From: a virus
Length of the DNA stretch: 64,000 bases
Reading direction: 5' to 3' (one strand)
IMG/VR virus record: IMGVR_UViG_3300037104_000796
Coordinates: 98,359 to 162,358 of that record
Shown piece by piece: positions 21,462 through 50,863 of this stretch (the first letter of the stretch is position 1; every line of letters starts with the position of its first letter). A program made the translations under genes and the position numbers. The notes under the pieces were generated by a model that was given only the letters and a program-made list of their open reading frames with translations, had not been told where the DNA came from and ran no database searches.

Positions 21462-21914
21462 ATGCATGCACGACTTATAAATGAGAAATTTACTGAACAA
21501 TCTGATCCCATTCAGGATATGGGTTTGGGTTTGAAAAACAATCCTAAAATTCTTTTGCCTATGGTTATTAAAAAGCTAAAGGAATTTGGAATTAATGCCG
21601 AAGTCAAAAAATCTTTTGAATTTGGTAATGGCCACTACGAAATTTACGTAAATGGAAATTCCGATGATGAAGTTTTGGAGGTTCAATATTTTTATTCTAC
21701 TGATAAAGCTGCTCATGAAGAAGGTTGGAAAGGTGGATTCGCATTATCTGATGATGGTGGAGCTGATTTATGTAAAGTTTCGCATGATCCAATGGTGTCT
21801 ATAAAAGTTTTACTGAAAAGAAAATATGGAACTAAAGCAAAAATTGCAAAATATATTGACAAAGCTGAAAAGAAAATAGCATTTTTAAAAGAAGTAGAAA
21901 AAATAATAGATTAA
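21462..21914 (+). CDS. DPxxDMGIG-leader family protein (dispersed copy)
   Basis: MHARLINE-KFTEQSDPIQDMGLG; AATATATA box at 21437. Confidence 0.65.
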   Translation: MHARLINEKFTEQSDPIQDMGLGLKNNPKILLPMVIKKLKEFGINAEVKKSFEFGNGHYEIYVNGNSDDEVLEVQYFYSTDKAAHEEGWKGGFALSDDGGADLCKVSHDPMVSIKVLLKRKYGTKAKIAKYIDKAEKKIAFLKEVEKIID

Positions 21915-21917
21915 GAT

Positions 21918-22310
21918 ATGATACTCCCAGGAAACGAATCAAAAACACTCCCTATAATTATCTATGAAGAAATGAGGGGAACAATAGTAATAAAAGGTAG
22001 ATCAATTTCTCCAGAAGTAGAAAGTTATTTCGCTGATTTTACGCCTTATCTAGATGAATGCGTATCAAAAAATCCCATGGATTTGAAAATAGATATTGAT
22101 CTCGAGTATTTCAATACCAAAACTGCTAAAATCATGATTAAAATGCTTGACACACTTAAAAAAGTAGTAGAGACAGGTTTTAAAGTTGATGTAACGTGGT
22201 TTTACGAAGCAGATGATGAAGATATGTATGACGCAGGATTAGATTATGAAGAACTATCAAAATTAAAATTCAATTTTGTTGAAAAACCAAGCACAGAAAA
22301 ACCCGATTAA
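21918..22310 (+). CDS. SiaC/DUF1987 family regulatory protein
   Basis: IKGRSISPE, LEYFNTKTAK and VTWFYEADDEDMYDAGLDY motifs. Confidence 0.85.
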   Translation: MILPGNESKTLPIIIYEEMRGTIVIKGRSISPEVESYFADFTPYLDECVSKNPMDLKIDIDLEYFNTKTAKIMIKMLDTLKKVVETGFKVDVTWFYEADDEDMYDAGLDYEELSKLKFNFVEKPSTEKPD

Positions 22311-26998: not shown

Positions 26999-28018
26999 TT
27001 AATATTGATAATTGTTAATTTTGATTTTTTTGTCATGTGCTTCCTTTAATAAAGGCGCATATTCATATCCGACTCCTACTACCATAGCTTTTGTATATGC
27101 TATCATTAAAGTTGCTACGTTTCCATTTGGAATTATCCAAGCTGTTTTTATAGTAGCTTGATGTTTTTTTATTGCTTCAACTTCACGTCCATCACCATCT
27201 TTATAGCCTCCAGTAAAATCTCTTTGAATTGTTGTAGGTTGTCCGTAAGTGGATAATAACGTTTCATTTATTTCATTATAGTCGGATACTGGTATGCTAA
27301 GTTTATCAACTTTTTGTTGAACTAAATCTATAGCAACATATCCTACGATAATATTGAATAATTTGTCATCGAGTAATCGAATTTCAAGAAAAAATGGTTT
27401 CTGAGTATTGTTATCCATAGAAAAGGTTATAAATCCCTTTCCTTGACCAATGTATACACCACCAAGTTGATTAATTATGAGATTACTAGCAGTGACTCTA
27501 TCCATTCCCCAAGCTAATCCGAAAATACCATCCATATCAGGAGATAATTTTCCATCTACTTGCCCTATATTAATGACTTGACCAATATCAGTCAACAGTT
27601 CTTCTTTAGGCACATATGAATCAGGTTCGTCAGTAGGTGGATCAATCTTAATAGAATTAGAATTAGGATTATAAGTAACCACTCCTGTATTTTCCTCTTG
27701 TTTTGCAATTGGCTTTACAATTGGTTTTTCACCCGTTTTGTTACTAACTCCTTTAATAAGAACAGTAGTAACTTCACCAATTTTTATTTCAACGATTTCA
27801 CCATAAATAGCAGTACCATTTGATAAAGCTTTAAGATAATGGCTTCCAACTATAACATTGGTTATTACTTTTGTGCCATCTTCCTGTTTTACTTCATCAA
27901 GATATAAAACAGTGCCGGGCACTTCGGTAAAAATTTTAAGTGTGCCCGTTTTGGCCTGGCCAAATAAGACAGACACACTTAATAATACCAATGCCAAAAA
28001 ACATAACGTTTTCTTCAT
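26999..28018 (-). CDS. Secreted protein with PEGA-like N-terminal domain
   Basis: Signal peptide; KTGTLKIFTE...LYLDE...VGSHYLK; FGLAWGM motif. Confidence 0.7.
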   Translation of the reverse strand: MKKTLCFLALVLLSVSVLFGQAKTGTLKIFTEVPGTVLYLDEVKQEDGTKVITNVIVGSHYLKALSNGTAIYGEIVEIKIGEVTTVLIKGVSNKTGEKPIVKPIAKQEENTGVVTYNPNSNSIKIDPPTDEPDSYVPKEELLTDIGQVINIGQVDGKLSPDMDGIFGLAWGMDRVTASNLIINQLGGVYIGQGKGFITFSMDNNTQKPFFLEIRLLDDKLFNIIVGYVAIDLVQQKVDKLSIPVSDYNEINETLLSTYGQPTTIQRDFTGGYKDGDGREVEAIKKHQATIKTAWIIPNGNVATLMIAYTKAMVVGVGYEYAPLLKEAHDKKIKINNYQY

Positions 28019-28037
28019 TTGTGTTTGTTTTTAAAAA

Positions 28038-28394
28038 TTAATTACATTTTGAACATGAAGAATAACCACCTGCATGACATGCATCAGCAGATGAAAAACA
28101 TTTATTACCACCTCTCCAAGGTGTACTACCACTGCAACCATTATTGCAACCAGTGCCACCGCCGCCACCGCCGCCAGCACAACAGTATACGCCGGCAGCG
28201 CCTGAACTACAGCCAGAACCTCCGCTATGTGATGGAGAACCACCACCCGGACAAGAATAACAACTGCCATCGTTACCAGCTAATTCGCCAGTGCCGCAAA
28301 CAGGTTCGCATCCAACAAGACCCCAAATAGTAAAAGCTGATAATATCAGTCCTAAACTAAATGTTACTAAAATTTTTAATAATTTTGTTTTCAT
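28038..28394 (-). CDS. Gly/Cys-rich lipopeptide (12 Cys after the lipobox Cys)
   Basis: LVGC lipobox, 13 Cys in total, poly-Gly. Confidence 0.7.
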   Translation of the reverse strand: MKTKLLKILVTFSLGLILSAFTIWGLVGCEPVCGTGELAGNDGSCYSCPGGGSPSHSGGSGCSSGAAGVYCCAGGGGGGGTGCNNGCSGSTPWRGGNKCFSSADACHAGGYSSCSKCN

Positions 28395-28426
28395 TTTTTT
28401 GATTTGTTTAATTTATTTTTGTTTAT

Positions 28427-29386
28427 TTATTTATTGTTTATATTTGCTATTACGCTTTCGAATACGAAAGGAGATGAGAGTTGTCCAGATGCAACTATTT
28501 TTATTGTATCATGTTCCACATAGAATGCAGTTGGATAAGTGAATGTTAGTTTATCCATTGCATTAGAACTTAATATAGTGACAGGAAAATCCTGTTTAAA
28601 TTTATCTTCAAAAATAAGTCTATCTTTATCATTTCCTACTGTTAATATTATAACACTGTCAACAACATTAGTTTTAATGAAACTCCTTAAATTTTCAATT
28701 GAGTTCCAACAATAAGGACATGTGTATGAAAAACAGAAAATTAAATATGTACTATCTTTTGATGTTTGAACATATTTATTGAATTCTGTGTTTTTGATAT
28801 TTTGGTTTTTCATTTTCATTTCTGGTTCTTCAACATTGATAAACCTGGTTGTTTGTGCAAATAATGGAGAAGAAGTTGTCTTACCTGATATAAAAGTAAA
28901 AATAATCAAAGACGATATAAGTATATATTTTTTCCAACTTGGAGTAATTCTACATCTCAGAGTTTTAGGATATAATTGCCATACACTCAATGACATTATT
29001 ATCAATATAACATTGCGAATAAATGAAAATAAAGGTGGAAAGTTTGTGTTTTTGATAGCCCCAAAACATCCACAATCATTAATTCCATGTGCAAAGTGTG
29101 CATAAGCAAATAATGCGGTAAACACTACCAACATACCGAGTGAAATTATTGAATCTCTTTCAGGATTAACTAATAAAAGTAATGAGAATCCTAATAGTAT
29201 TTCAAATAAAATAATTACGGGAGCTAATGGAGCAAATAATCCCAATCCATATTGTCCGATAAGAGCAGTAAATGCAGCTACATCAATAGCCTTTCCGATT
29301 CCTGAAAAAATGAATATCGCTCCAATCATGATTGAAATAACATTCAAAGTTTTCTTATCAAAAATACTTTTAAGAAATGTGTTCAT
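28427..29386 (-). CDS. MauE/DoxX membrane protein fused to a thioredoxin-like domain
   Basis: FSGIGK, EILLG, DCGCFG, RN motifs; C-terminal CPYC. Confidence 0.85.
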   Translation of the reverse strand: MNTFLKSIFDKKTLNVISIMIGAIFIFSGIGKAIDVAAFTALIGQYGLGLFAPLAPVIILFEILLGFSLLLLVNPERDSIISLGMLVVFTALFAYAHFAHGINDCGCFGAIKNTNFPPLFSFIRNVILIIMSLSVWQLYPKTLRCRITPSWKKYILISSLIIFTFISGKTTSSPLFAQTTRFINVEEPEMKMKNQNIKNTEFNKYVQTSKDSTYLIFCFSYTCPYCWNSIENLRSFIKTNVVDSVIILTVGNDKDRLIFEDKFKQDFPVTILSSNAMDKLTFTYPTAFYVEHDTIKIVASGQLSSPFVFESVIANINNK

Positions 29387-29415
29387 TTGTATGTATTTAA
29401 TGTAATTTAATGTAA

Positions 29416-30081
29416 TTATGATTCGTCAATTATTTTTTTCAAGTCTGATGCAGCAAGTTCAATGTTATTGTAAACATCAATAATCATATCAGAGTTAAAC
29501 ACTTTGCGTGTAAATTTTGAAGATTTAACACCTTGATCATGACCAGTATCGAATGCATCTACAATTGTTTTGTAAGTTGCTTCAAGAAGACCATCGTTAA
29601 CATTATCAGGAATCCCTGCACTTCTTAAAACATGTGTGTATTTTCTTTTAAAGTCCATAAGACTTACAAGGCGTACATATCCATCTGCACTTACGTATTT
29701 ATATTCAAAGGGTTTAACATTTAGTACTTGAGGACGATTATTTTTTGGGCATTCTTTGTAATAAGGATCGCCCCAATCATTTTTCCTATAAATCATCTTT
29801 TTAAGAAGACGCTCATATTCAATGATTTCTTTTGCAATTTTAACCGTGCCTCTTGCAGGGTCTTTAACTACCCATATAAGTTGTGCTTCGGCTGTGGATG
29901 CTGGAATTACAAATACGCGTTTAAACATAATTTTTTTAACCGATGATAAGAAAATATCGTTCCAATAGTTTGGAAGTATTTCTGATAAAGGCCCAAATAT
30001 GTTTTTACGGTTGATATATTTTCCGCTTACTTTTACAACGAAAGCTTCAACTTTCTTTTGATAATTCTGGTCTGTTAACAT
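29416..30081 (-). CDS. Hypothetical protein
   Basis: 221-aa ORF. Confidence 0.65.
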   Translation of the reverse strand: MLTDQNYQKKVEAFVVKVSGKYINRKNIFGPLSEILPNYWNDIFLSSVKKIMFKRVFVIPASTAEAQLIWVVKDPARGTVKIAKEIIEYERLLKKMIYRKNDWGDPYYKECPKNNRPQVLNVKPFEYKYVSADGYVRLVSLMDFKRKYTHVLRSAGIPDNVNDGLLEATYKTIVDAFDTGHDQGVKSSKFTRKVFNSDMIIDVYNNIELAASDLKKIIDES

Positions 30082-30298
30082 ATTCTTTGTTTTTAAAAAT
30101 TTCCATTACTATTTCTGTAGCACAGTCGAGACAAAATAAATTTTCTACTGTGCCCTTTTCATTTTTTAATAAATTTTGCTTAATTATCTTGCGACATTTA
30201 TGACATAAAAAAGCTCCACGACCACCATTGAATTTGATGATAGGCTTTAACTTTTTATTAGTCAAAGGGTTACATAATAATTTTTTTATCTTATACAT
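30047..30298 (-). CDS. Small Zn-finger protein
   Basis: KFNGGRGAFLCHKC...FCLDC. Confidence 0.6.
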   Translation of the reverse strand: MYKIKKLLCNPLTNKKLKPIIKFNGGRGAFLCHKCRKIIKQNLLKNEKGTVENLFCLDCATEIVMEIFKNKEYVNRPELSKES

Positions 30299-30662
30299 AA
30301 GATTCGAATTTATTTCCCTGCATGTCGTATCCTACCAATGTGATGCTATCTAAATAACATTTGTCTTGGTAGTCATTTTGTGGGTCATTAGGCACATTGT
30401 CATATGCGTTGGCCATTTCTTTATTGTATTCTTCAAGTATTTCATCATATTTCATTTCACTTTCCAAAACGGTTTTAAGATTTTGATAAAATTCAATTTG
30501 AGTTTTTATTTCACCAAGGTGCTTTTCATACTCTGAAAATGGAAAAGGCATTAAGAATTCTTGTGGGTGTTCGGTATCAGCATCTCCACCAGCAAACATT
30601 ACAAATATGTAAAAATTGTTGGCTCTGCTTTTTTCTTTAAGGGTAAATTTAATAGTTCTCAT
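30291..30662 (-). CDS. Hypothetical protein
   Basis: ORF with overlapping start/stop. Confidence 0.6.
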   Translation of the reverse strand: MRTIKFTLKEKSRANNFYIFVMFAGGDADTEHPQEFLMPFPFSEYEKHLGEIKTQIEFYQNLKTVLESEMKYDEILEEYNKEMANAYDNVPNDPQNDYQDKCYLDSITLVGYDMQGNKFESYV

Positions 30663-30964
30663 TTATATTCAAAATTTAATTCATCAATTTTTTTCCAAAA
30701 GCTTAAATCCCATTGTTTTTCAACGGCTTCTTTATCGGCAATAAGTGTTTGTCCATGTAACAATCCAAATACATTATCATGTCCAAGCCAATAAATTTCA
30801 TCACCTTCTCGAAAACTTTTTTTAAAAATAGTCCAAATTAATTTAGACGGATCTAAACGTTCTCTGTGATGTCCTGTTTTATCATAAAGAAAAAGAAGAT
30901 TACGATTTTCAATAATCTCTCTTTCTCGTTTCCAATGTTTAACGTAATGTACTATTCCGAACAT
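30659..30964 (-). CDS. Hypothetical protein
   Basis: ORF downstream of the early-type promoter at 30983. Confidence 0.6.
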   Translation of the reverse strand: MFGIVHYVKHWKREREIIENRNLLFLYDKTGHHRERLDPSKLIWTIFKKSFREGDEIYWLGHDNVFGLLHGQTLIADKEAVEKQWDLSFWKKIDELNFEYK

Positions 30965-30982
30965 ATTTTATTTTGTTTAATA

Positions 30983-31020
30983 CAATATAATCAATTTTCT
31001 TGACACTAAAAAATTTTATG
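30983..31020 (-). promoter_or_regulatory. Early-type promoter
   Basis: caatataatc...cttgacactaaaaaatttt. Confidence 0.6.
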
Positions 31021-31024
31021 CCAT

Positions 31025-31717
31025 TTATTTTTTATTTTTTTGTTTTGCTAATCGTATGTTTCTTTTATGTTCTTCTGTTCTTGGTGGTTTTTTCTTTCCA
31101 ATTAATTTTTTACTTAAATTGTCTTTATGCGTTTGTGATAGTGGCTTATCTTTTTTCGCATCTACCATTTTTTGACGAGATTCTTCAAAGATGTTATGTT
31201 TTTTTCCTTTTTGTTGTATTTGTTTCTGTTTTATATGTTCATTGTATTTTTGTGTTCCATCTTCAATACCATATTTTTCAATCCAAACATCCTTTAGTTT
31301 TCTTCCTTTCATTTTTGAAGGGAGTCCCTTTAAAGATTGACTTCTTAATTCACGCGTTATTTTCGATACAAATCTTCCTTGTTCAGATTTACTTATTTTA
31401 TCTTTTGTATCTTGAGAATGACAGCCATTAACACCGATACCACCCTTAGGACTAATATTATACCCATTTGGTGTTAACGTATTGTATTGAATGATATATT
31501 TTGATTGAGCATTAAATGCTTCTAATTTTGTATTAAATGTTTCTAAAATTATCTTTTTAAAATTTCTTCGAGTGTATTTTTTAATAGCAGCTTTTATTAA
31601 ATTTCCGCTACCTAAGTAATACCAGTGTTTATCGATATTATTTGTAACAGAATCACCAATATATTGTTTTCCGTTAACTAAATTCGTTGTTACGTAAACA
31701 TAAAAAACTTGTGCCAT
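31025..31717 (-). CDS. GIY-YIG homing endonuclease (NUMOD3 repeats)
   Basis: YVYVTTNLVNGKQYIG, YLGSG, PNGYN. Confidence 0.9.
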   Translation of the reverse strand: MAQVFYVYVTTNLVNGKQYIGDSVTNNIDKHWYYLGSGNLIKAAIKKYTRRNFKKIILETFNTKLEAFNAQSKYIIQYNTLTPNGYNISPKGGIGVNGCHSQDTKDKISKSEQGRFVSKITRELRSQSLKGLPSKMKGRKLKDVWIEKYGIEDGTQKYNEHIKQKQIQQKGKKHNIFEESRQKMVDAKKDKPLSQTHKDNLSKKLIGKKKPPRTEEHKRNIRLAKQKNKK

Positions 31718-31726
31718 ACTTTTTTA

Positions 31727-31754
31727 ATTATATATTCGTAGTAAGCACAAGTTT
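31727..31754 (-). promoter_or_regulatory. AAACT-N17-TATAAT promoter
   Basis: aaact tgtgcttactacgaata tataat. Confidence 0.6.
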
Positions 31755-31767
31755 TTACCTTAATCAA

Positions 31768-32016
31768 TTATTTTCCTTTATTGAGATCATAAGTTCTTGA
31801 TTTCGCTTTAAACGATAATCTGTTGAATTGAGCACGAGTAATTCGTACACCAACTGGCATAGTTCCTCTTGCAACATATACAAATCCTTCAATCAATTGA
31901 GCTGGATTCAATACTGAGTATGTAACGTCTGCTTCTTTAAGAAGATCGATTGCATTTTCTGGAAGAGTGTAATTGTCATCCAAAATAGGAACTGTTTCTA
32001 AACCTATTTCATTAAT
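31768..32016 (-). pseudogene. RNA ligase (DRB0094/Rnl5-like) catalytic subunit, C-terminal fragment detached by the inversion
   Basis: INEIGLETVPIL...IEGFVY...LSFKAKS (ligase motifs IV and V). Confidence 0.85.
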
Positions 32017-32025
32017 TAACTGAAC
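32017..32025 (+). repeat. Left 9-bp inverted repeat TAACTGAAC (inversion breakpoint)
   Basis: Reverse complement at 34046-34054. Confidence 0.9.
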
Positions 32026-32240
32026 CAGAACGTGAAGTTATCAAGGCTAAAATGGCTGAAATCTCTAAATTAAATACTCGTCCAGAATTCGAATTCCTTC
32101 GTGCTGTTAAATTTCACATCAAAACTCGTAGAATTTTAGGTGAAATATCATGTGGCATAGTATTTCCTATTTCAATCTTAAACAAAATTGGTAAAATATC
32201 TGAAAAGGACGGAAAACTTTTCTTGGAATTGGATATATAA
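32026..32240 (+). pseudogene. RNA ligase N-terminal (OB-like) subunit, second fragment
   Basis: PEREVIKAKMAE...PEFEFLRAVKFHIKTRRILGEISCGIVFP continues the 34319 ORF after flipping. Confidence 0.85.
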
Positions 32241-32252
32241 TATAAAAACATT

Positions 32253-33059
32253 ATGAATACTAGGAGAGGTTACATCTATGTGATACTAAATAAAATAAAT
32301 GGAAAGTATTACTATGGAAAAACTTTTAACATAAAAAACAGATGGAATAAACATATTTTTAATGCTAATAAAAAAATTAATAGACACCTTTATGACGCAA
32401 TGAATCATTATGGATATGAAAATTTTTCTATACATCAAATAAGTGAAATAATTGAAAATAAAGATATAATAACTAAAAAATTAAATGAATTAGAAACATC
32501 TTTTATATCATTAACAAATGCGCAAGACTCTAATTTTGGATATAATATGTCAAAAGGCGGTGATGGAGGATATTTAGGTGAAGAGGCCGTAGAAAAAATG
32601 GCTGCAAAAAAACGAGGAGTTGCATTATCTAAAGAACATAAAGATAATATTGGAAAAGGAAATAAAGGAAAAAATAAAGATAAACATCGAACTGAAGAAG
32701 AAAAACAACATTTAAGTAATTTGTACGAAGGAAAAACTTATGAAGAAATATACGGAGAAGAAACTGCAAAATTAAAAAAAGAACACGCCAGCAAAACCAT
32801 GAAAGGAAGAAAACGAAAACCTTTTTCAAAAAAATGGAAAGAAAATATCGGAAAGGCTTCGGCAGAACGTTTTAAAAAACAAAGAGAATTAAAAATATCA
32901 TCTATAGATACTGATGAAATAGAGAATTTATTAAAAAACAACATAAAGTCTAATGAAATACCAAATATATTTAAAGTTGATATACGCATGCTTAACTTTA
33001 TATTTATAAAAAAATATGGTATGACATTATACAAATATTCGCAAACAATGAAAAAATGA
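32253..33059 (+). CDS. GIY-YIG homing endonuclease
   Basis: GYIYVILNKINGKYYYGKT, GYNMSKGGDG; AAACT-N17-TATAAT at 32214-32241. Confidence 0.9.
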   Translation: MNTRRGYIYVILNKINGKYYYGKTFNIKNRWNKHIFNANKKINRHLYDAMNHYGYENFSIHQISEIIENKDIITKKLNELETSFISLTNAQDSNFGYNMSKGGDGGYLGEEAVEKMAAKKRGVALSKEHKDNIGKGNKGKNKDKHRTEEEKQHLSNLYEGKTYEEIYGEETAKLKKEHASKTMKGRKRKPFSKKWKENIGKASAERFKKQRELKISSIDTDEIENLLKNNIKSNEIPNIFKVDIRMLNFIFIKKYGMTLYKYSQTMKK

Positions 33060-33063
33060 AATC

Positions 33064-33480
33064 ATGAAAAAACTATCTTTATTACTAATTTTAATATCAC
33101 TGGGAATATTTTTTAATTCATGTAATAATAACAATCGTGAATTAAAAGCTTATATGAAAAAAGCTGCAATTGAATATGATGCAAAAATTAATCCCCTTAA
33201 AAAAGGAATGGATAGGACACAAAAAGATATTGATTCTTGCTTAAATTCTTGGACTGTTTATGATAACAATAAAGATATTCTTAATATGACTGAAAAAGAA
33301 TTTAAGAAATATACAATTATTAAAGAAGAAAGAGAAAAATTCGTAGATAATCTTTTCACAAAATTTGATAGTTTAAAACATGAAATTGAAAAAATATCTC
33401 CTGAGTATTTTTTAACAACCGAAGAAATAACGGAAATACATTATAAAGCAAAAGAGATGGTAAGACAATTATCAAAATAA
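33064..33480 (+). CDS. Lipoprotein
   Basis: FNSC lipobox. Confidence 0.7.
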   Translation: MKKLSLLLILISLGIFFNSCNNNNRELKAYMKKAAIEYDAKINPLKKGMDRTQKDIDSCLNSWTVYDNNKDILNMTEKEFKKYTIIKEEREKFVDNLFTKFDSLKHEIEKISPEYFLTTEEITEIHYKAKEMVRQLSK

Positions 33481-33487
33481 GTAAAAT

Positions 33488-34075
33488 ATGAAACAATTAA
33501 TAGAATTATACGACGGAGTCGATCTTACTGATATACTTGGTGTTATTCAGTATGTTGCGCCGGACCCAGCAATTATGGGTGGAGATGCTGCTGGAACTCT
33601 TACAGGTGTTGGTCTTCTTATTTCTGATGAAGAAAGATTGGAAAACCTTAATGCCAAATACGAAGTTATGAGATTATTTCAGTACTACAAAACTGAAAAA
33701 CTTGAAGGAACTTCTTTCACAGCATATTTAAAAGATGGAAAATTTGGAGTTTGCGGTCGTACTGTTGACTTCCAAGTTCCTGATGAAGATGATCCTTTTG
33801 AAGGATTGAACTCTTACTGGAAAACTGCAATAAGATTTGGTATGGAAGAAAAATTGAGAACTATTTGGGTTCTTTCGGATGATGAATCTGATCTTTTTGC
33901 TCATAAGTTAGATAACATTGCCATCCAAGGCGAACTCATTGGAGAAGGCATTCAGGGTAACATTTACAAACTTAAAGGACAAGTGGTTAAGTTTTACAAT
34001 GCTTTTTACATTGACAAACAAGAATATATGCCTTTCGATAAATTCGTTCAGTTACTTTTGACATTTGCTTGTTAA
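33488..34075 (+). pseudogene. RNA ligase catalytic subunit, N-terminal fragment (truncated by the inversion)
   Basis: DLTDILGV, DEERLENL, TEKLEGTS (motif I), IQGELIGEGIQGNIY. Confidence 0.85.
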
Positions 34076-34319
34076 GAGCTCTCCATTCTTCTTTCTTTTC
34101 AACAGTCAATCCATCAGGCATAATTGAGTCTGTCTCGACATATACGCATAAATCTCCGATCTTAAAATCCTTTTTCTTTACTACAACCCACCAGCCACGA
34201 ACTCTAGCGTGTTCAATATTATCAGCACCGACAATAGGCTTAATTTCTTCTATACGAGCGATAGTTGCTAATTTTCGAATATCAGCAGTTTCATTAGTTA
34301 AATTTATATTTTCTGTCAT
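33987..34319 (-). pseudogene. RNA ligase N-terminal subunit, first fragment
   Basis: RKLATIARIEEIKPIVGADNIE...GWWVVVKK..FKIGDLCVYVETDS (DRB0094-family N-terminus). Confidence 0.85.
34046..34054 (-). repeat. Right 9-bp inverted repeat (GTTCAGTTA)
   Basis: Reverse complement of 32017-32025. Confidence 0.9.
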
Positions 34320-35032
34320 ATCTTTTTGTGTTTGCAGTTATCACCATGAAATTGTTTATATGGGCTTGGCTGTGTTAATTTTCCGCACCATTCACATTGT
34401 ATTTTTGGAATATTTTTATGGGATTCACTTAATTTGCTAATAATTTTCTCTGTACGTTCGTAAGATGTATGGGCCGAATTTAGACTAATTTTATTTTTCC
34501 ATTCAATAAGTTTTTTATCAGCAATTTCTTTCCCGTATTTATCTACCCATATATTATATGCATTTGTGCCGAACATTCCGTTTTTTTCTCCAGAGGTTTT
34601 TTTATTTTGTTTTCTTGTAAAAGAAATTTTGTCAATCGATTCTTTTTTATGTTTTTTATCAAACATTGGATTTTTATCGCCATTATGATCAACATTTTCT
34701 TTTTGTTCTGGCGTCCATTTGTAACCTATGCATCCTCGACCTCCTAAATTAAGATTATATCCGCCTTCGCTTACATGAGAATGAAAATATTTTATCCAAA
34801 ATTGTTCTTTTTCACTCCAATCGATTAAGTCGATATATTCTATAATTCCCATTATAAAATTATCGGGTTTATATTTTTTAATTGCTGCATCTAATGTTTT
34901 ACTGCTCCCATAATATTTGTCTTTGTCAAATTCTTTATTTGAAGCGTGAAAGCCTACATAACATTTTTTGTTTATCATGTTTTTAATCATGTAAATAAAA
35001 TGATATTTATATGCGCTTTCTACATTAATCAT
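34316..35032 (-). CDS. GIY-YIG homing endonuclease
   Basis: FIYMIKNMINKKCYVG, YYGS, GYNL. Confidence 0.88.
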   Translation of the reverse strand: MINVESAYKYHFIYMIKNMINKKCYVGFHASNKEFDKDKYYGSSKTLDAAIKKYKPDNFIMGIIEYIDLIDWSEKEQFWIKYFHSHVSEGGYNLNLGGRGCIGYKWTPEQKENVDHNGDKNPMFDKKHKKESIDKISFTRKQNKKTSGEKNGMFGTNAYNIWVDKYGKEIADKKLIEWKNKISLNSAHTSYERTEKIISKLSESHKNIPKIQCEWCGKLTQPSPYKQFHGDNCKHKKI

Positions 35033-35247
35033 TTACTTTTTCTTCCATGTTTTTTAACAATAATGGTTCCTTCTAATTTATGCCAATCACGTTGACATAC
35101 GTTGTGTGTTCCACCAGACCAATCACCTTCGAGTTCAACTTGGTCAGGTTTGACTCGTAATCCAACGACTAAGAAAGTTTCATTCCCGTGATAAATATCC
35201 GGGTGACAAACTTGGTCGTATAATTCAATTTTATTTTTGTTTCCCAT
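35029..35247 (-). CDS. Small hypothetical protein
   Basis: ELEGDWSGGTHNVCQ; likely start MGNKNK. Confidence 0.55.
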   Translation of the reverse strand: MGNKNKIELYDQVCHPDIYHGNETFLVVGLRVKPDQVELEGDWSGGTHNVCQRDWHKLEGTIIVKKHGRKSK

Positions 35248-35509
35248 CGTCTTGGTAATATGCTTTGTAATTATATGGATCGTATATGTTTTTGGCTTTA
35301 ACATATTCCCAAGGACAAATACTCATTTCACTTTCCTGAGGACTTAATAATTTAAGTTTTGCACATTCAGCAGGAGGATTGTTTTTGATATTAATTACTG
35401 CGTAATCTACTTCGTATAAATACGAACCATCCATCCTTGATTTTCCTAATGCGTTAAATCTTGGATCGTTGATGGGCTTTTTAACTGAAATTACTGCGTT
35501 GTGATTCAT
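35231..35509 (-). CDS. Hypothetical protein
   Basis: ORF in operon. Confidence 0.55.
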   Translation of the reverse strand: MNHNAVISVKKPINDPRFNALGKSRMDGSYLYEVDYAVINIKNNPPAECAKLKLLSPQESEMSICPWEYVKAKNIYDPYNYKAYYQDDGKQK

Positions 35510-35510
35510 A

Positions 35511-35714
35511 TTAAATTTCGATTAGTGAGTTTTCCGGCAATTCAAAAAATGGGGTTTCATCGAGTTTGTCAGATACAGGAATTCCGTTGAATCCTATGCA
35601 TCCGTAGGTGTACCCACTGTAATAATAAACAGTCTCACCTTCTTTATATGTTCTTTCAAGCCACGGACATTCCTTCTTGGTAACATCTCGTGTAAGTCTG
35701 TATTTTCTCATCAT
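35511..35714 (-). CDS. Small hypothetical protein
   Basis: ECPWL, TYGCI, PFFELP. Confidence 0.6.
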   Translation of the reverse strand: MMRKYRLTRDVTKKECPWLERTYKEGETVYYYSGYTYGCIGFNGIPVSDKLDETPFFELPENSLIEI

Positions 35715-35956
35715 AATATTGTATCTATGTTAAGATTTTCAATCACATTGTCATCAATAATTTGAATGATTTCATTAATCTTTAACATATCAACTCCATC
35801 ATAACGTTCATAAGTCATAATAAGATCATTCTTATCTTTGCAGTATACTGGAAAATCATCCCAATCAAAAGTATCACATACTGAAATGATAAATTGACAT
35901 TTTTTTTCTTTTGCCGTTTTAATCCAGCGATCGACATCTTCTCTACCTACTGCCAT
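35711..35956 (-). CDS. Small hypothetical protein
   Basis: VCDTFDWDDFPVY. Confidence 0.6.
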   Translation of the reverse strand: MAVGREDVDRWIKTAKEKKCQFIISVCDTFDWDDFPVYCKDKNDLIMTYERYDGVDMLKINEIIQIIDDNVIENLNIDTIL

Positions 35957-35976
35957 GATTTTACGTATTAAAATCG

Positions 35977-36168
35977 TTATTTCTTTTTAGGATTGTTTAT
36001 TGACTCAATCTCTTTATTGATACGAGTTTTGTCACCTTCTGTTAAGGGTATCATCTTAGAAGTTGTTTTGCCATCAACTTTTTCTGGTTTTGTTCCTCTT
36101 AACAATTCTGCTTCTAATAAGCCTTTAGCACTTGCTCTTCTGTTTCTAATTCCTAATGCGCCTTTCAT
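35977..36168 (-). CDS. Small basic protein
   Basis: ORF in operon. Confidence 0.55.
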   Translation of the reverse strand: MKGALGIRNRRASAKGLLEAELLRGTKPEKVDGKTTSKMIPLTEGDKTRINKEIESINNPKKK

Positions 36169-36185
36169 ATTTTATGTTTTAGTGA

Positions 36186-36482
36186 TTAAAGTTCAATAAT
36201 TTCCCATTCATCTAATGGAACGTTTATAGTTTTATCAAAATTATATTGATCTTTATAGGCCGGAATTGGCGAATAAGGTTCAATTTTAAAATGCTTTATA
36301 AGAGCCTGTTCTCTTTTTGAAGTTCCTTTTGACCACTGCAATAAAACTCTTACACCGTGTTCAACCCATTTAAGTGAAGGCTTTTTATCATATATTTTTC
36401 CATTAATAGAAAAGTTTCCTGTTCCTCTTGATGGTGTAAAAAACAATCCAGTCGGTTTGTGTAAAATTTTGTAGACTTTCAT
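36186..36482 (-). CDS. Hypothetical protein (likely start MKVYKI)
   Basis: Follows the early-type promoter at 36501. Confidence 0.6.
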   Translation of the reverse strand: MKVYKILHKPTGLFFTPSRGTGNFSINGKIYDKKPSLKWVEHGVRVLLQWSKGTSKREQALIKHFKIEPYSPIPAYKDQYNFDKTINVPLDEWEIIEL

Positions 36483-36500
36483 ATTATAAGTTTTATAAAG

Positions 36501-36540
36501 CAAATATAAACAAAATACCTGACATAAAAAAATATTTATG
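36501..36540 (-). promoter_or_regulatory. Early-type promoter with TATATTTG box
   Basis: caaatata...cctgacataaaaaaatattt. Confidence 0.7.
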
Positions 36541-36549
36541 GACTTATTT

Positions 36550-36981
36550 TCAAATTATTCTAAACGTTTTGGTCTCGTTAACAGGCCAGAAATATTTTCC
36601 ATCATTAAATCCTTCGTCGCCTGGAAATTTAGGAAGATAGAATTCTTTGTCCTTTTCAATTAAGCGTGCACGCATGGCTCTATGAAAGTTTTTATCACCT
36701 ACCCACCACGGATCTTCATTTTGATGATCAACATCATATTTTATCATTGTGTTTTTGTACCCGCGTCTTACCCATTCGTCAATACAGCAATTTGTGTAAT
36801 ATTTAAGAGAATTGGTGTAGCCCACCCACATTTTAACTGCTGGGTGATTTTGCCATCTTGCCGGTTTTCCTTCAAGAATGTCGACGATTTGTCGAGCTTC
36901 AACTCGTTGTTTTCCTAAACGTTTCATATCCAAAGATTGTACACTTCGGATAAAATTAGGGTACGGAAGAAAAGTTTGCAT
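36550..36981 (-). CDS. Pyrimidine-dimer DNA glycosylase / DenV-related protein (MSMEG_6728-like)
   Basis: MQTFLPY, LDMKRLGKQRVEARQI, NHPAVKMW and EWVRRGYK motifs. Confidence 0.88.
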   Translation of the reverse strand: MQTFLPYPNFIRSVQSLDMKRLGKQRVEARQIVDILEGKPARWQNHPAVKMWVGYTNSLKYYTNCCIDEWVRRGYKNTMIKYDVDHQNEDPWWVGDKNFHRAMRARLIEKDKEFYLPKFPGDEGFNDGKYFWPVNETKTFRII

Positions 36982-37002
36982 TTAAGAGATGTTTTGTGTA
37001 AG

Positions 37003-37040
37003 CTAATATAATCAAAAAGCCTGATTTAAAAAAATCAGGC
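37003..37040 (-). promoter_or_regulatory. Early-type promoter overlapping a terminator hairpin
   Basis: ctaatataatc...gcctgattt-aaaa-aaatcaggc. Confidence 0.6.
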
Positions 37041-37064
37041 GTGTTAAATGTTTGTTAAAGAATG

Positions 37065-37508
37065 TTATAACAATTCTTGTGATCCGCCCCATGATTTTTT
37101 AAAATCACGATCATCACGATTAAAATCATCACCATTAAATTCTTCACCGGCTTCGTCGTTTGTATCTTCAGCAGATTCTTCATCATCTTCGTCTTCATCC
37201 TCGTCTTCCCAATCATCAGAACCTTCTCTTACCATTCCCCATTCATCTGAGAAATCAGTATAATCAACTTCCAATTCATCCAATATTTCTTCTACTTCAC
37301 CTGGGAAATATCCTTCTTCATCTTTATCACGATTTGTAAGTCCTGTTATTTCATTCCAATTAGTATCAATAAATGATGCCAAATCTGAGGGGCTAACATC
37401 GCCCAAATCTCTAATTTCGTATTCTCCTACAAATAGTTTTGCCCAATAATTTTGTACAAAATTCATTTTTGCAGCATCCGATATTTCATTTATAACTTTT
37501 GCTCTCAT
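37065..37508 (-). CDS. Highly acidic protein with IxE-type N-terminus
   Basis: MRAKVINE; D/E-rich tail. Confidence 0.6.
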   Translation of the reverse strand: MRAKVINEISDAAKMNFVQNYWAKLFVGEYEIRDLGDVSPSDLASFIDTNWNEITGLTNRDKDEEGYFPGEVEEILDELEVDYTDFSDEWGMVREGSDDWEDEDEDEDDEESAEDTNDEAGEEFNGDDFNRDDRDFKKSWGGSQELL

Positions 37509-37526
37509 ATCATTAATTTATTTTAA

Positions 37527-37871
37527 TTACACTACAAGAATTTCATCGTATGGTATGCCCAATTCATTGGCTACTTCAGCTATGATTTTTTCCCCTATCT
37601 TTCCAATTTCATCAGAATCGATATTGCCTAAGCCCTTTTCAACAACGTCAGGTTCCCAACCTTGTTCAACTACTTTCATCCACCAAATATTTCTGCAATC
37701 TTCAATAGTCTCTTCGTCATTTGAATCATTCCAAGGAAGATAATCTTTAAATACTTTTTCCATTTTTGCTTTCCATGCTCTATAAATTTGTGCATGATAT
37801 CTTTGATAAAAAGCACGAACTTTTTTGTCGGCTGAATATTCATCTAAAGCTTCTTTAACTAATTTTTTCAT
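37527..37871 (-). CDS. Small protein with LxE-type N-terminus
   Basis: MKKLVKEALDE. Confidence 0.6.
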   Translation of the reverse strand: MKKLVKEALDEYSADKKVRAFYQRYHAQIYRAWKAKMEKVFKDYLPWNDSNDEETIEDCRNIWWMKVVEQGWEPDVVEKGLGNIDSDEIGKIGEKIIAEVANELGIPYDEILVV

Positions 37872-38329
37872 ATCGATATTTTATTTTTAATTCCTCTTAA
37901 TTCGGGTTCTTTCCAAGTCATTTCCATTGCGTTGAAAATTTCTTCCTCATTTTCTCCTGCAATGAATTCGCGGGTTTCTCTATCATACAAGCCTTTTTGA
38001 TTTAAAAGCATTCCTTTGCGTTTTGCTTTGGCTCTCATTATGATGTTAAATTCCTGAGGTCCTGTTAAAAACAAAAGCATTGCACCAAAATTCTCAGGAT
38101 CAGTTCTGTAAATATCAACTTGTTCACCATCAATAGTGTAACGAGTAATATCTTTGCCTTTAACAAAAGCTACTTGGCCTGGAATCATTGGAACTTTTTC
38201 TCCCATATACACAACATCCAAGTCATGCAAATCCTCTTTTTTTCCACGTCTTGCAGAACCTGCAATGTAGAAATTATCATCTATTGATTTAAGATAATCA
38301 AAAATTTTGTGAGCTTTTTCTGCATTCAT
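37868..38329 (-). CDS. Minimal DNA polymerase X-family nucleotidyltransferase
   Basis: IAGSARRGK..HDLDVV, QVDI, LFLTGPQEFN, LNQKGLY and PELR motifs. Confidence 0.88.
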   Translation of the reverse strand: MNAEKAHKIFDYLKSIDDNFYIAGSARRGKKEDLHDLDVVYMGEKVPMIPGQVAFVKGKDITRYTIDGEQVDIYRTDPENFGAMLLFLTGPQEFNIIMRAKAKRKGMLLNQKGLYDRETREFIAGENEEEIFNAMEMTWKEPELRGIKNKISI

Positions 38330-38330
38330 C

Positions 38331-38714
38331 TTAAAATGATTTAGCGTTTTCTTTACCACAAATTAATTTTGCAATAATATATTCTTTGCTTAAAGAATCA
38401 GGAAGACCTTCTCCATCATCGTCGTTGAATTCAGTTTCAAAGAAATCTGCATAATCACCTAAATCTTCATAAGAAAGTTCTGTTTTAGGCGATTCCAGAA
38501 TTTCTTGAATTCCCGCATCGATATGTTCTAACATGTCTTCCAATGTCATATCATATGCATCTGGATTGAATTCATCACCCATAGCTGCAACTTCAGAACC
38601 ATCTGGTGTTGACATACAAAACATACTGTCATCATATTTATCGGGCTTTGGAATTGATTTTAGAATTTTATCTAAATCAGATTCATTTAAACTTTCTTTT
38701 ACTAATTTTTTCAT
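38331..38714 (-). CDS. Acidic protein with LxE-type N-terminus
   Basis: MKKLVKESLNE-SDLD. Confidence 0.6.
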   Translation of the reverse strand: MKKLVKESLNESDLDKILKSIPKPDKYDDSMFCMSTPDGSEVAAMGDEFNPDAYDMTLEDMLEHIDAGIQEILESPKTELSYEDLGDYADFFETEFNDDDGEGLPDSLSKEYIIAKLICGKENAKSF

Positions 38715-39916
38715 AACGTTTCTAAATATTTTAATGTTTCATTTTTATTCTTCCAATCAAATTTATTCATCAATGCGTCTTTATACATCATACTCATAAT
38801 GTTTCCAACTTCTTCATTCTTAACACCAAATTTGTCCATGATATCATTACCATTAACCGGGATATCACCTAATTTCATTGGTATTTTTCCTGCTTTCATT
38901 TCCTTAATAACTTTCCAAGCTGTTTCAGGCATAACTAATGCATCTTTAAGTGAAGGAGCGGTTCTTAACATCTGGAACACATTCCATTTCGTTTCTGCTT
39001 CAGATTTTTTCATACCTGGCGCAAAATCAATGAATTTGCCAAAATAAGCTTCCAAAGTTTGTAATGCTTTAATTATAACAAATTCACCTTTAAGTCTTTG
39101 TTTGTAAAACTGTGAAGGCGTTACTCCACCAAGAACTCCAAGTATGTAGTAGAAAGAAACTTCATCTAATCCTTCAAAATCTGAAAAATCAGTGTTTATG
39201 AATTTTTTTCCAAACAAAGCTTTATCCATATCACTTTTGTGCATACATTCAAACGCAATCTTTGTGCTTCCGTTTTTATGAAGTATTTTTTGAAATTCTT
39301 CAAGTATACGTTCTCCAGATATTTCTTTAAGCAAATTAGCATTTTTCTTCATTAACTGAAGTGTATTTGGCTCAATATCAAAACGGAATCTTGCTGTAAA
39401 CTGTATAGCACGAACCATACGAAGTGCATCTTCAACAAATGCATTCTTATCAGTTGCTCTAAGTATTTTAGCTTGTAAATCTTTACGACCATTAAATGGG
39501 TCAAGGATTTCATTTGTTTTAACGTTAACAGCTATTGAGTTAACTGTAAAATCTCTACGTTTCAAGTCATCAACTATAGTAACACCTTCTGTGGAAATTT
39601 CGAATCCTTTGTGTCCTGTACCTATTTTTCTATCTACTCTTGGAACTGCAATATCAAAATCTTCTCCTGCGTGATATGTAGGACGAAATTTAATTACAGA
39701 AAATGATTGACCAACAATACTTGTTTTTCCGTAATGTCTTAACAATTCTTTAATATCATCTATTCCTAAGCCGGTAACAACAATATCTATATCCTTAGGA
39801 GATTTATTCATGAATGCATCACGAACACAACCTCCAACAATATATACATTACCTTTTCTTAAAAGAATTTTGATCCAATCTTGAGAACGAAGATCATTTA
39901 TGAGATTTTTTACCAT
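38711..39916 (-). CDS. cca: tRNA nucleotidyltransferase (CCA-adding enzyme family)
   Basis: VGGCVRD..DIDI, DLKRRDFTVN, EDALRMVRA and ISGERI motifs. Confidence 0.9.
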   Translation of the reverse strand: MVKNLINDLRSQDWIKILLRKGNVYIVGGCVRDAFMNKSPKDIDIVVTGLGIDDIKELLRHYGKTSIVGQSFSVIKFRPTYHAGEDFDIAVPRVDRKIGTGHKGFEISTEGVTIVDDLKRRDFTVNSIAVNVKTNEILDPFNGRKDLQAKILRATDKNAFVEDALRMVRAIQFTARFRFDIEPNTLQLMKKNANLLKEISGERILEEFQKILHKNGSTKIAFECMHKSDMDKALFGKKFINTDFSDFEGLDEVSFYYILGVLGGVTPSQFYKQRLKGEFVIIKALQTLEAYFGKFIDFAPGMKKSEAETKWNVFQMLRTAPSLKDALVMPETAWKVIKEMKAGKIPMKLGDIPVNGNDIMDKFGVKNEEVGNIMSMMYKDALMNKFDWKNKNETLKYLETL

Positions 39917-39942
39917 TAAGTCTTTTGTTTATTTATCTTTAT

Positions 39943-39987
39943 CTAATATAACAAAAAAATCCGACAAATAAAAATATTTGACGGATT
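39943..39987 (-). promoter_or_regulatory. Early-type promoter in a palindrome, with a tandem GATAAATA late-type box at 39930
   Basis: ctaatataac...aatccgacaaataaaaatatttgacggatt. Confidence 0.7.
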
Positions 39988-50807: not shown

Positions 50808-50835
50808 ATTATATGTATAAAACATTATACAGTTT
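50808..50835 (-). promoter_or_regulatory. Middle-type promoter AAACT-N17-TATAAT
   Basis: aaact gtataatgttttataca tataat. Confidence 0.65.
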
Positions 50836-50863
50836 TTGTCATATAATTAATAAATACACTTTT

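What the first reader, a model, noticed from the sequence alone, without database searches (positions are those of the whole stretch)
31768..34319. Clean 2.0-kb inversion between 9-bp inverted repeats switches off both subunits of a split RNA ligase
Seen: TAACTGAAC (32017-32025) and GTTCAGTTA (34046-34054) flank a block of plus-strand genes in a minus-strand region. Flipping 32026-34045 joins ...KQMSKVTE|PEREVIKAKMAEISK...PEFEFL (a 162-aa N-terminal subunit) and ...FDKFVQL|INEIGLETVPILDDNY...LSFKAKS (a 271-aa catalytic subunit), both exactly in frame with no bases lost. No recombinase gene is visible in the window. Inference: this is a phase-variable ON/OFF switch for RNA repair, a one-off microhomology inversion (possibly triggered by the enclosed GIY-YIG nuclease), or an assembly/amplification artefact.
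Basis: seen in the sequence. Interest (0 to 1): 0.82.

Follow-up and report, generated by a model that had tools for sequence, protein, structure and literature searches.

The report
Phage RNA ligase broken by inversion
In an uncultured giant phage, a 2-kb piece of DNA has flipped at a chance 9-base inverted repeat and cut both halves of an already two-part RNA repair ligase; several independent assemblies show it, so it is a real but ordinary one-off mutation and not a genetic switch.

Summary
TAACTGAAC (32017-32025) and GTTCAGTTA (34046-34054) bound a 2,020-bp block. Flipping it in silico restores four same-strand genes: a 162-aa OB-fold subunit, a 268-aa GIY-YIG homing endonuclease, a 138-aa lipoprotein-like ORF and a 271-aa nucleotidyltransferase subunit of an Rnl5-type (DraRnl/NgrRnl) RNA ligase.

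Close relatives read straight across both junctions. All 85 related loci are collinear. Three of them (L006, L007, L097) carry the same split as OB subunit, GIY-YIG gene, catalytic subunit.

- **Not an assembly artefact:** the inverted junctions recur in two Logan contigs from different runs (SRR11593519; SRR23247740, which has 2 SNPs) and in an ENA scaffold.
- **Un-inverted allele not found:** no un-inverted copy of this strain turned up in the collections searched.
- **Repeat is at chance level:** there are 44 such 9-bp pairs in the locus against 43.8 expected. Relatives do not conserve it, and it is not enriched in the genome.
- **No recombinase:** no serine or tyrosine recombinase is encoded in the 162-kb record.
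- **No decay:** the ligase pieces show none, so the event is recent.

Verdict: a heritable, apparently fixed microhomology inversion that inactivates a dispensable split ligase. The scan has found similar one-off inversions on other DNA. Interest is low to moderate.

The parts
31768..32016 (-). 3' piece (C2, 82 aa plus stop) of the catalytic (nucleotidyltransferase) subunit. It carries the ..LIEGFVYV.. and ..RLSFKAKS.. stretches, which I take to be motifs IV and V.
   Evidence: 91% identical to the end of P0002/L009 and immediately collinear with C1 there (gap 1 nt). C1 aligns to NgrRnl residues 110-260 only, so Glu312 and Lys326, both essential in NgrRnl (PMC7261155), must fall in this piece. 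That last step is inferred.
32017..32025 (.). Left copy of the 9-bp inverted repeat, TAACTGAAC. The crossover lies somewhere within it.
   Evidence: The identical junction is present in L090 (Logan SRR11593519) and L093 (ENA ERZ28663975).
32026..34045 (.). The inverted 2,020-bp block. It is the only plus-strand block in this minus-strand region that breaks genes.
   Evidence: Strand map. The other plus-strand units checked in the window are whole genes. All 85 related loci keep the four ligase pieces on one strand.
32025..32240 (+). 3' piece (N2, 71 aa plus stop) of the OB-fold subunit, including the split-specific tail ..NKIGKISEKDGKLFLELDI.
   Evidence: PF21189 positions 49-92. The tail is conserved in the 162-aa subunit of L006/L007 and in P0108/P0109.
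32253..33059 (+). Free-standing GIY-YIG homing endonuclease gene (268 aa) that splits the ligase.
   Evidence: PF01541 at 6.6e-11, TIGR01453 at 7e-15, phrog_314. It is 46% identical over its full length to the GIY-YIG gene at the same site in L006 and 70% identical to that of L097.
33064..33480 (+). 138-aa ORF with a lipoprotein-like leader (..FFNSC). It is a lineage-specific passenger between the endonuclease gene and the catalytic subunit.
   Evidence: No credible Pfam match (weak sub-threshold hits only) and no NCBIfam or PHROG family. Absent at this position in L006, L007 and L097. Singleton cluster.
33488..34054 (+). 5' piece (C1, 189 aa) of the catalytic subunit, with motif I (KLEG) and motif III (QGE). 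It now runs on into 6 foreign codons, giving a 195-aa chimeric ORF.
   Evidence: PF09414 at 1e-10. TIGR02306 positions 108-272. NgrRnl 5cot/6vt3 at 7.5e-19, residues 110-260.
34046..34054 (.). Right copy of the 9-bp inverted repeat, GTTCAGTTA.
   Evidence: The identical junction is present in L090 (SRR11593519) and L092 (SRR23247740).
34047..34319 (-). 5' piece (N1, 91 aa) of the OB-fold subunit. It now runs on into 19 foreign codons, giving a 110-aa chimeric ORF.
   Evidence: PF21189 at 8e-21, positions 1-64. TIGR02306 positions 2-59.
31025..31717 (-). Flanking GIY-YIG (SegE-like) homing endonuclease gene downstream of the ligase. It is outside the inversion.
   Evidence: PF19835/PF01541, phrog_314. 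Absent at this position in L009 and L097.
34316..35032 (-). Flanking GIY-YIG-like homing endonuclease gene upstream of the ligase. It is outside the inversion.
   Evidence: phrog_314 at 1e-27. Absent at this position in L008 and L097.

Best explanation
This is a real, heritable, one-off inversion. The ancestor of this phage carried, all on the minus strand, an Rnl5-type RNA ligase already split by a GIY-YIG homing endonuclease gene into an OB-fold subunit (162 aa) and a nucleotidyltransferase subunit (271 aa). A lipoprotein-like ORF lay beside the endonuclease gene. Ordinary codon drift produced a 9-bp inverted repeat, one copy in each subunit gene. A single illegitimate exchange or template switch within that 9-bp microhomology flipped the 2,020 bp between the copies. 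The flip cuts the OB fold after residue 91. It also separates motifs I and III of the catalytic subunit from its last 82 residues, which hold the inferred motifs IV and V, so neither subunit can be made and ligase function is lost. The flipped endonuclease gene and ORF138 now lie antisense to the operon and have no recognisable promoter, so they are probably silent. The inverted form is the dominant or only form of this strain. It is young, because the pieces show no decay. It is tolerated because the ligase is dispensable. Shown here: the inversion, its breakpoints, the ancestral order, and its recurrence in independent data. Inferred: the molecular route (recombination versus template switching), the loss of activity, and the silencing.
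For: The flip restores ORFs of 162, 268, 138 and 271 aa. The restored N subunit aligns end to end with the 162-aa subunit of L006/L007, including the split-specific tail. Relatives read through both junctions without indels. All 85 related loci are collinear, and L006, L007 and L097 have OB subunit, then GIY-YIG gene, then catalytic subunit on one strand. The repeat is at chance level (44 pairs against 43.8 expected). Relatives do not share it: they read TAGCTGAAC or TAACTGAAG at the N site and GTTAAATTG or GTTAAAATG at the C site. It occurs 2+2 times in 162 kb. No PF00239 or PF00589 recombinase was found in the record. Independent data carry the inverted junctions. The Logan SRR11593519 contig of 12,321 bp is 100% identical to window 27662-39982 and runs through both junctions. 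The Logan SRR23247740 contig of 1,649 bp covers the right junction and has 2 SNPs. The ENA ERZ28663975 scaffold covers the left junction. No allele of 271 or 162 aa at about 100% identity exists in the 15-billion-protein collection; the nearest are 81% identical. Only 1 private substitution was found at 410 well-conserved columns, so there is no decay. Rnl5 assignment and essential residues.
Against: No reads could be examined, so a minority un-inverted subpopulation cannot be excluded. I cannot tell whether SRR11593519, ERZ28663975 and the JGI record come from one biosample. If they do, they are independent assemblies but not independent samples, and only SRR23247740 (2 SNPs, right junction only) is clearly a second library. 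The record is about 40% complete by CheckV, so a recombinase could lie in the unseen part. Complete absence of decay is also what a reversible element would show.
Confidence: 0.8

Rival explanations
1. Reversible ON/OFF inversion (phase variation) of phage RNA repair. The block flips back and forth, driven by a recombinase encoded elsewhere in the phage or host, or by the phage's general recombination system, so that part of the population makes the ligase.
For: The flip is perfectly conservative and both halves are undecayed, so reversion would restore function. 9-bp inverted repeats do serve as sites in a known switch (E. coli fimS; from my own knowledge). About 60% of the genome is unseen.
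Against: No serine or tyrosine recombinase in 162 kb. The repeat is one of 44 chance 9-bp pairs and is not the longest. Similarity beyond the 9 bp is at chance level: 2 of 7 and 1 of 7 bases match in the flanks (read). Neither split nor unsplit relatives conserve it. It is not repeated elsewhere above chance. None of 85 relatives is inverted. Only the inverted form of this strain appears in four assemblies and two protein searches. The Logan contig runs unbranched through both junctions.
Confidence: 0.06
2. Artefact of assembly, amplification or library preparation. The phage is really collinear and the inversion was created in vitro or in silico.
For: Chimeras formed at short microhomology are known from whole-genome amplification (from my own knowledge). 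No reads could be inspected. Several of the assemblies may derive from one read set.
Against: Both reciprocal junctions are present and exact. Three further assemblies besides the JGI one reproduce inverted junctions, and SRR23247740 is a different run with 2 SNPs. A 9-bp repeat is far shorter than assembler k-mers, so it cannot cause graph confusion (inference). No collinear copy of the strain was found anywhere.
Confidence: 0.05
3. A real one-off inversion, but triggered by a homing-endonuclease double-strand break and then favoured by selection, for example because it silences the endonuclease, ORF138 or the ligase. This differs from the best explanation only in cause.
For: The locus is exceptionally rich in GIY-YIG genes: one inside the split and two flanking it, where relatives have none flanking. 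The inverted form is seen in more than one run.
Against: The breakpoints lie about 215 bp and about 560 bp away from the inserted genes, not at an endonuclease gene boundary. Nothing here measures cleavage or fitness. A neutral loss explains the data equally well, and the nearest unsplit relative also carries an in-frame TGA in its ligase.
Confidence: 0.09

Closest known systems
Spontaneous inversions between short inverted repeats or microhomologies. Examples are the recA-independent inversions at 12-23-bp repeats in E. coli (Schofield, Agbunag & Miller 1992, cited from memory) and microhomology U-turn or short-repeat inversions in organelle genomes (PMC4417113 and PMC8486006, titles and abstracts seen).
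   Same: Breakpoints lie exactly on a short chance inverted repeat. The exchange is conservative and reciprocal with no bases lost. No dedicated recombinase or conserved site is involved. The result is gene disruption.
   Different: Here it is seen in a natural population of an uncultured jumbo phage, not in a selection experiment. It cuts two genes at once, because the target was already a split gene with a homing endonuclease inside.
Homing-endonuclease 'genes in pieces' of T4-like phages: Aeh1 nrdA split by mobE, T4 topoisomerase genes 39/60 split by mobA, and phage 25 gene 43 (PMC2988022, read; Friedrich et al. 2007 as cited there).
   Same: The restored locus is a contiguous enzyme gene cut between two domains by a free-standing GIY-YIG endonuclease gene. 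Unsplit homologues exist in close relatives, and the split is kept across diverged relatives.
   Different: The enzyme is an Rnl5 RNA ligase, and I did not search specifically for reports of a split Rnl5. Assembly of the two subunits was not tested here. In this phage the split gene has been further wrecked by the inversion.
Rnl5 nick-sealing RNA ligases DraRnl and NgrRnl (PMC4408790 and PMC7261155; PDB 5cot, 6vt3).
   Same: An N-terminal OB domain (PF21189) plus a nucleotidyltransferase domain (PF09414). Motif I KLEG aligns to NgrRnl 170-KLDG and QGE aligns to motif III Glu227.
   Different: It is encoded as two polypeptides, carries a roughly 40-residue insert in the OB domain that only close relatives share, and is now interrupted.
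Programmed invertible segments: phage Mu G/Gin, P1 C/Cin, Salmonella Hin and E. coli fimS with FimB/FimE (from my own knowledge).
   Same: A DNA block bounded by inverted repeats whose orientation decides whether intact genes exist.
   Different: There is no recombinase gene, the site is neither conserved nor extended, only one orientation was observed, and relatives never invert. It resembles these in geometry only.

Membership tests
Microhomology / short-inverted-repeat inversion (one-off illegitimate rearrangement) | Both breakpoints coincide with one short inverted repeat, and the exchange is conservative. | tested here: met
   the flip restores exact frames, and homologues are colinear across both joints.
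Microhomology / short-inverted-repeat inversion (one-off illegitimate rearrangement) | The repeat is of chance length and is not a conserved site. | tested here: met
   44 pairs against 43.8 expected. Relatives differ at 1 and 4 of the 9 positions. Genome count is at expectation.
Microhomology / short-inverted-repeat inversion (one-off illegitimate rearrangement) | A derived state confined to one lineage. | tested here: met
   0 of 85 related loci are inverted. The inverted junctions occur only in contigs 99.9-100% identical to the window.
Programmed invertible switch (serine invertase or tyrosine recombinase type) | A recombinase gene in or beside the element, or elsewhere in the genome. | tested here: not met
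   PF00239 and PF00589 are absent from the 162-kb record while the controls were positive. The record is only about 40% complete.
Programmed invertible switch (serine invertase or tyrosine recombinase type) | Specific, conserved inverted-repeat sites longer or better than chance. | tested here: not met
Programmed invertible switch (serine invertase or tyrosine recombinase type) | Both orientations coexist in a population. | not testable with these tools
   No reads are available. At assembly and protein-collection level only the inverted form was found.
Assembly or amplification artefact | The junctions are confined to one assembly or library. | tested here: not met
   JGI record, Logan SRR11593519 (both junctions), Logan SRR23247740 (right junction, 2 SNPs) and ENA ERZ28663975 (left junction).
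Rnl5 RNA ligase (DraRnl/NgrRnl, TIGR02306) | N-terminal OB domain followed by a nucleotidyltransferase domain with no C-terminal appendage. | tested here: met
   PF21189 on N1 and N2, and PF09414 on C1. TIGR02306 positions 2-59 and 108-272. The protein ends shortly after the KAK stretch. Met only after the in silico flip and across two polypeptides.
Rnl5 RNA ligase (DraRnl/NgrRnl, TIGR02306) | Motif I lysine nucleophile (KxDG) and motif III glutamate. | tested here: met
   The alignment to 6vt3/5cot places own KLEG on KLDG and QGE on QGE. The residue roles come from PMC4408790 and PMC7261155.
Rnl5 RNA ligase (DraRnl/NgrRnl, TIGR02306) | Motif IV glutamate and motif V lysine. | tested here: inconclusive
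   C2 alone finds no solved structure. The assignment of EG and KAK rests on colinearity with relatives and on position beyond NgrRnl residue 260.
Rnl5 RNA ligase (DraRnl/NgrRnl, TIGR02306) | Whole-protein score above the curated cut-off (151 bits). | tested here: not met
   Only pieces could be scored, at 48 and 49 bits. The joined sequence was not submitted.
Homing-endonuclease split gene ('genes in pieces') | A free-standing endonuclease gene lies between two halves whose homologues are one gene elsewhere. | tested here: met
   No group I intron was found, and the spacers are only 4-12 nt.
Homing-endonuclease split gene ('genes in pieces') | The two polypeptides assemble into an active enzyme. 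| not tested
   Inferred only, from conservation of the split form and its tail across relatives that are 57-81% identical.

The most novel reading that the evidence does not exclude
The block is a low-frequency reversible inversion, either recombinase-free or using a recombinase in the unseen 60% of the genome. It would let a jumbo-phage population keep a reservoir of OFF and ON states for its split RNA-repair ligase, and simultaneously for the enclosed homing endonuclease and lipoprotein gene. The OFF state would happen to dominate in the sampled environments.
Probability: 0.06. Interest if true: 0.7.

Novelty: new member of a known kind. Interest (0 to 1): 0.3.

Why it matters
It is a clean natural example of how short chance inverted repeats rearrange phage genomes and remove dispensable accessory genes. 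It also shows that such a rearrangement in a metagenome-assembled genome can be checked against independent public assemblies without access to reads. For annotation, the four ORF fragments (110, 62, 195 and 71 aa) should be labelled as pieces of one disrupted two-subunit Rnl5 ligase, not as separate genes. The restored locus and its relatives add an Rnl5 RNA ligase to the enzymes that survive being split by a homing endonuclease. That is the more useful lead for biochemistry.

Tried and rejected
- **Megablast of the locus against 50,697 phage records:** no match.
- **Single-protein scan of viral contigs:** no relative found. An alignment-based scan was needed instead.
- **Exact 27-28-mers next to each junction:** none in viral contigs or JGI metagenome contigs, so no further copy in either orientation there. 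The own record is withheld from these scans.
- **Group I intron as the cause of the split:** no Rfam hit, and the spacers are too short.
- **Promoter evidence for the flipped genes:** the sigma-70 scan, the Bacteroidota -7 box and the TTATATTWR box are all at chance level. The one plus-strand TTATATTTA inside the block (32998) lacks the conserved upstream half of the phage's early promoter element. No promoter can be claimed.
- **C2 piece alone against solved structures:** nothing meaningful.
- **Literature search for the run, sample and assembly accessions:** nothing found, so sample independence could not be settled.
- **Other plus-strand units in the minus-strand region:** the window units checked by Pfam (470-1531, 21462-22310, 50813-51508) are intact genes, not further gene-breaking inversions. 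The short plus-strand ORF at 35993-36199 and five plus-strand units upstream of the window were seen only on the strand map.
- **Complex prediction:** none was run. Whether the two subunits bind is not the claim at issue, and the restored sequences are not unaltered window sequences.
Full report
**Observation.** TAACTGAAC lies at 32017-32025 and its reverse complement GTTCAGTTA at 34046-34054. The 2,020 bp between them carry four plus-strand ORFs inside a long run of minus-strand genes. Replacing 32026-34045 by its reverse complement gives four uninterrupted minus-strand ORFs of 162, 268, 138 and 271 aa. The window is bases 98359-162358 of a 162,358-bp linear IMG/VR virus record that CheckV rates about 40% complete. 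It is therefore part of a large uncultured phage.

**What the genes are.**
- The 5' N piece (34047-34319, minus strand) matches the PHA02142 OB-fold domain PF21189 (8e-21). The 3' N piece (32025-32240, plus strand) matches the end of the same domain.
- The 5' C piece (33488-34054, plus strand) matches RNA_ligase PF09414.
- Both large pieces match TIGR02306, the DRB0094-type RNA ligase.
- C1 aligns to Naegleria gruberi RNA ligase (5cot/6vt3) residues 110-260 at 7.5e-19. The window's KLEG falls on motif I KLDG, and QGE falls on motif III.

This is the Rnl5 family: an N-terminal OB domain plus a nucleotidyltransferase domain (PMC4408790). In NgrRnl, Glu312 (motif IV) and Lys326 (motif V) are essential (PMC7261155). 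They lie beyond the part covered by C1, so by position they belong to the separated 82-aa C2 piece (31768-32016, minus strand). This last step is an inference, because C2 alone finds no structure.

The gene between the halves is a GIY-YIG homing endonuclease. The 138-aa ORF has a lipoprotein-like leader and no family.

**Ancestral order.**
- Close relatives read straight through both joints. P0006/L008 and P0109/L097 cover the N joint, and P0002/L009 and L097 cover the C joint. None has an indel.
- The restored 162-aa subunit aligns end to end with a 162-aa protein of L006/L007, including a tail that exists only in split forms.
- In L006, L007, L097 and L098 the order is OB subunit, GIY-YIG gene, catalytic subunit, all on one strand. 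Their endonucleases are 46% and 70% identical to the window's over the full length.
- Stand-alone catalytic subunits of about 260-266 aa (P0003, P0005, P0007, P0008) and stand-alone OB subunits (P0108, P0109, P0113-P0115) are common. Other close relatives are unsplit (P0002, P0004, P0006).

So the two-subunit ligase is an established homing-endonuclease 'genes in pieces' allele of the kind reviewed in PMC2988022. No group I intron is present. Across 85 related loci, every detectable ligase piece lies on one strand in the order N1, N2, C1, C2, and none is inverted. The window's arrangement is therefore derived and unique.

**Is the repeat special?** No.
- The restored locus holds 44 exact 9-bp inverted pairs against 43.8 +/- 10.4 in shuffles, and it also has longer ones.
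- The 9-mer occurs 2+2 times in 162 kb, about as expected.
- The bases flanking the two copies do not match beyond chance (read).
- Relatives have TAGCTGAAC or TAACTGAAG at the N site and GTTAAATTG or GTTAAAATG at the C site. The repeat therefore arose by codon drift in this lineage.

What is significant is that both breakpoints fall on one such pair. That is the signature of a homology-guided illegitimate exchange or template switch.

**Real or artefact?** Exact look-ups of the junction-specific chimeric ORFs found them outside the JGI record.
- A 12,321-bp Logan contig from SRR11593519 is 100% identical to window 27662-39982 and runs through both junctions.
- A 1,649-bp Logan contig from a different run, SRR23247740, covers the right junction. 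It differs from the window by two SNPs, at 35303 and 35306.
- An ENA scaffold (ERZ28663975, labelled SAMN07125057) covers the left junction.

Four assemblies and at least two sequencing runs thus agree. A 9-bp repeat is too short to confuse k-mer assemblers (inference). The un-inverted allele of this strain was not found. The best other match to C1 is 81% identical and the best other match to N1 is also 81% identical. Exact junction-adjacent 27-28-mers occur nowhere else in the viral or JGI contig collections. The caveat is that I could not inspect reads or sample metadata. Some of these assemblies may therefore share one read set, and a minority orientation would be invisible.

**Switch or accident?**
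- No serine or tyrosine recombinase is encoded in the 162 kb.
- The site is not conserved, extended or repeated.
- Only one orientation is seen.
- The ligase pieces are undecayed, with 1 private change at 410 conserved columns. This shows the event is recent, but on its own it does not separate a switch from a young mutation.
- The nearest unsplit relative (L008) has an in-frame TGA in its ligase. This fits a gene that is dispensable and repeatedly lost.

The evidence favours a fixed or dominant one-off inversion (confidence 0.8) over a switch (0.06) or an artefact (0.05). A trigger by one of the three local GIY-YIG nucleases is possible but untestable here (0.09). The breakpoints lie about 215 and about 560 bp from the inserted genes.

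**Consequences (inferred).**
- The OB fold is cut after residue 91.
- The catalytic subunit loses its last 82 residues.
- Four fragment ORFs of 110, 62, 195 and 71 aa remain.
- The endonuclease gene and ORF138 now face the operon's transcription. I found no copy of the phage's early promoter element in front of them, so they are probably silent.

**Comparison and novelty.** The rearrangement works like the spontaneous inversions at short inverted repeats described in bacteria and organelles. The underlying gene is a new example of a homing-endonuclease-split enzyme. Earlier notes of this scan report several similar one-off inversions on other DNA and a separate note on the split itself. This is a new member of a known kind. 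It is well documented, but of modest interest.

Noticed in passing
L008:3674-3676: The closest unsplit relative of the ligase (P0006, JGI 3300043311) has an in-frame TGA (..LQRIYEL*DFAFQGE..), after which the frame continues with conserved ligase sequence. This may be a second, independent inactivation of the gene in this clade, a sequencing error, or recoding.
   Followed up: partly
window 33064-33480 (+): A 138-aa ORF with a lipoprotein-type leader (..FFNSC), inserted between the endonuclease gene and the catalytic subunit only in this lineage. It has no credible Pfam match, no NCBIfam or PHROG family, and forms a singleton cluster.
   Followed up: partly
window 31025-31717 (-), 32253-33059 (+), 34316-35032 (-): Three GIY-YIG homing endonuclease genes lie within 4 kb around one ligase. 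Relatives L008, L009 and L097 lack the two flanking ones. The downstream and middle genes share a 20-nt stretch at 95% identity (31293-31312 and 32799-32818). This stretch is now in inverted orientation and could seed further rearrangement.
   Followed up: partly
proteins P0009, P0011, P0015, P0028 and others: Several related RNA-ligase catalytic domains carry an intein splicing domain (PF14890). Inteins as well as free-standing endonucleases therefore invade this ligase family.
   Followed up: no
proteins P0113-P0115: More distant relatives have 110-aa stand-alone OB subunits ending ..NYGK.(I/V)YEN(N/D)IPK... The split between the OB and catalytic domains is therefore widespread and may have arisen more than once or spread by homing.
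   Followed up: no
window 10107, 18484, 19796, 20881, 21384, 25481, 36501, 39943, 42624, 44560, 45058 (-): An early-promoter-like element with a conserved upstream half (aaataa..gtcaaatatttttatttgtcag..) about 9 nt before TTATATT(A/T)(G/A). It is seen as near-identical copies on the minus strand only.
   Followed up: partly
window 36550-36981 (-), 38711-39916 (-): A DenV-type pyrimidine-dimer glycosylase and a CCA-adding/poly(A) polymerase family enzyme lie just upstream of the ligase. The polymerase-ligase neighbourhood is conserved in L006, which suggests an RNA/tRNA repair module.
   Followed up: no
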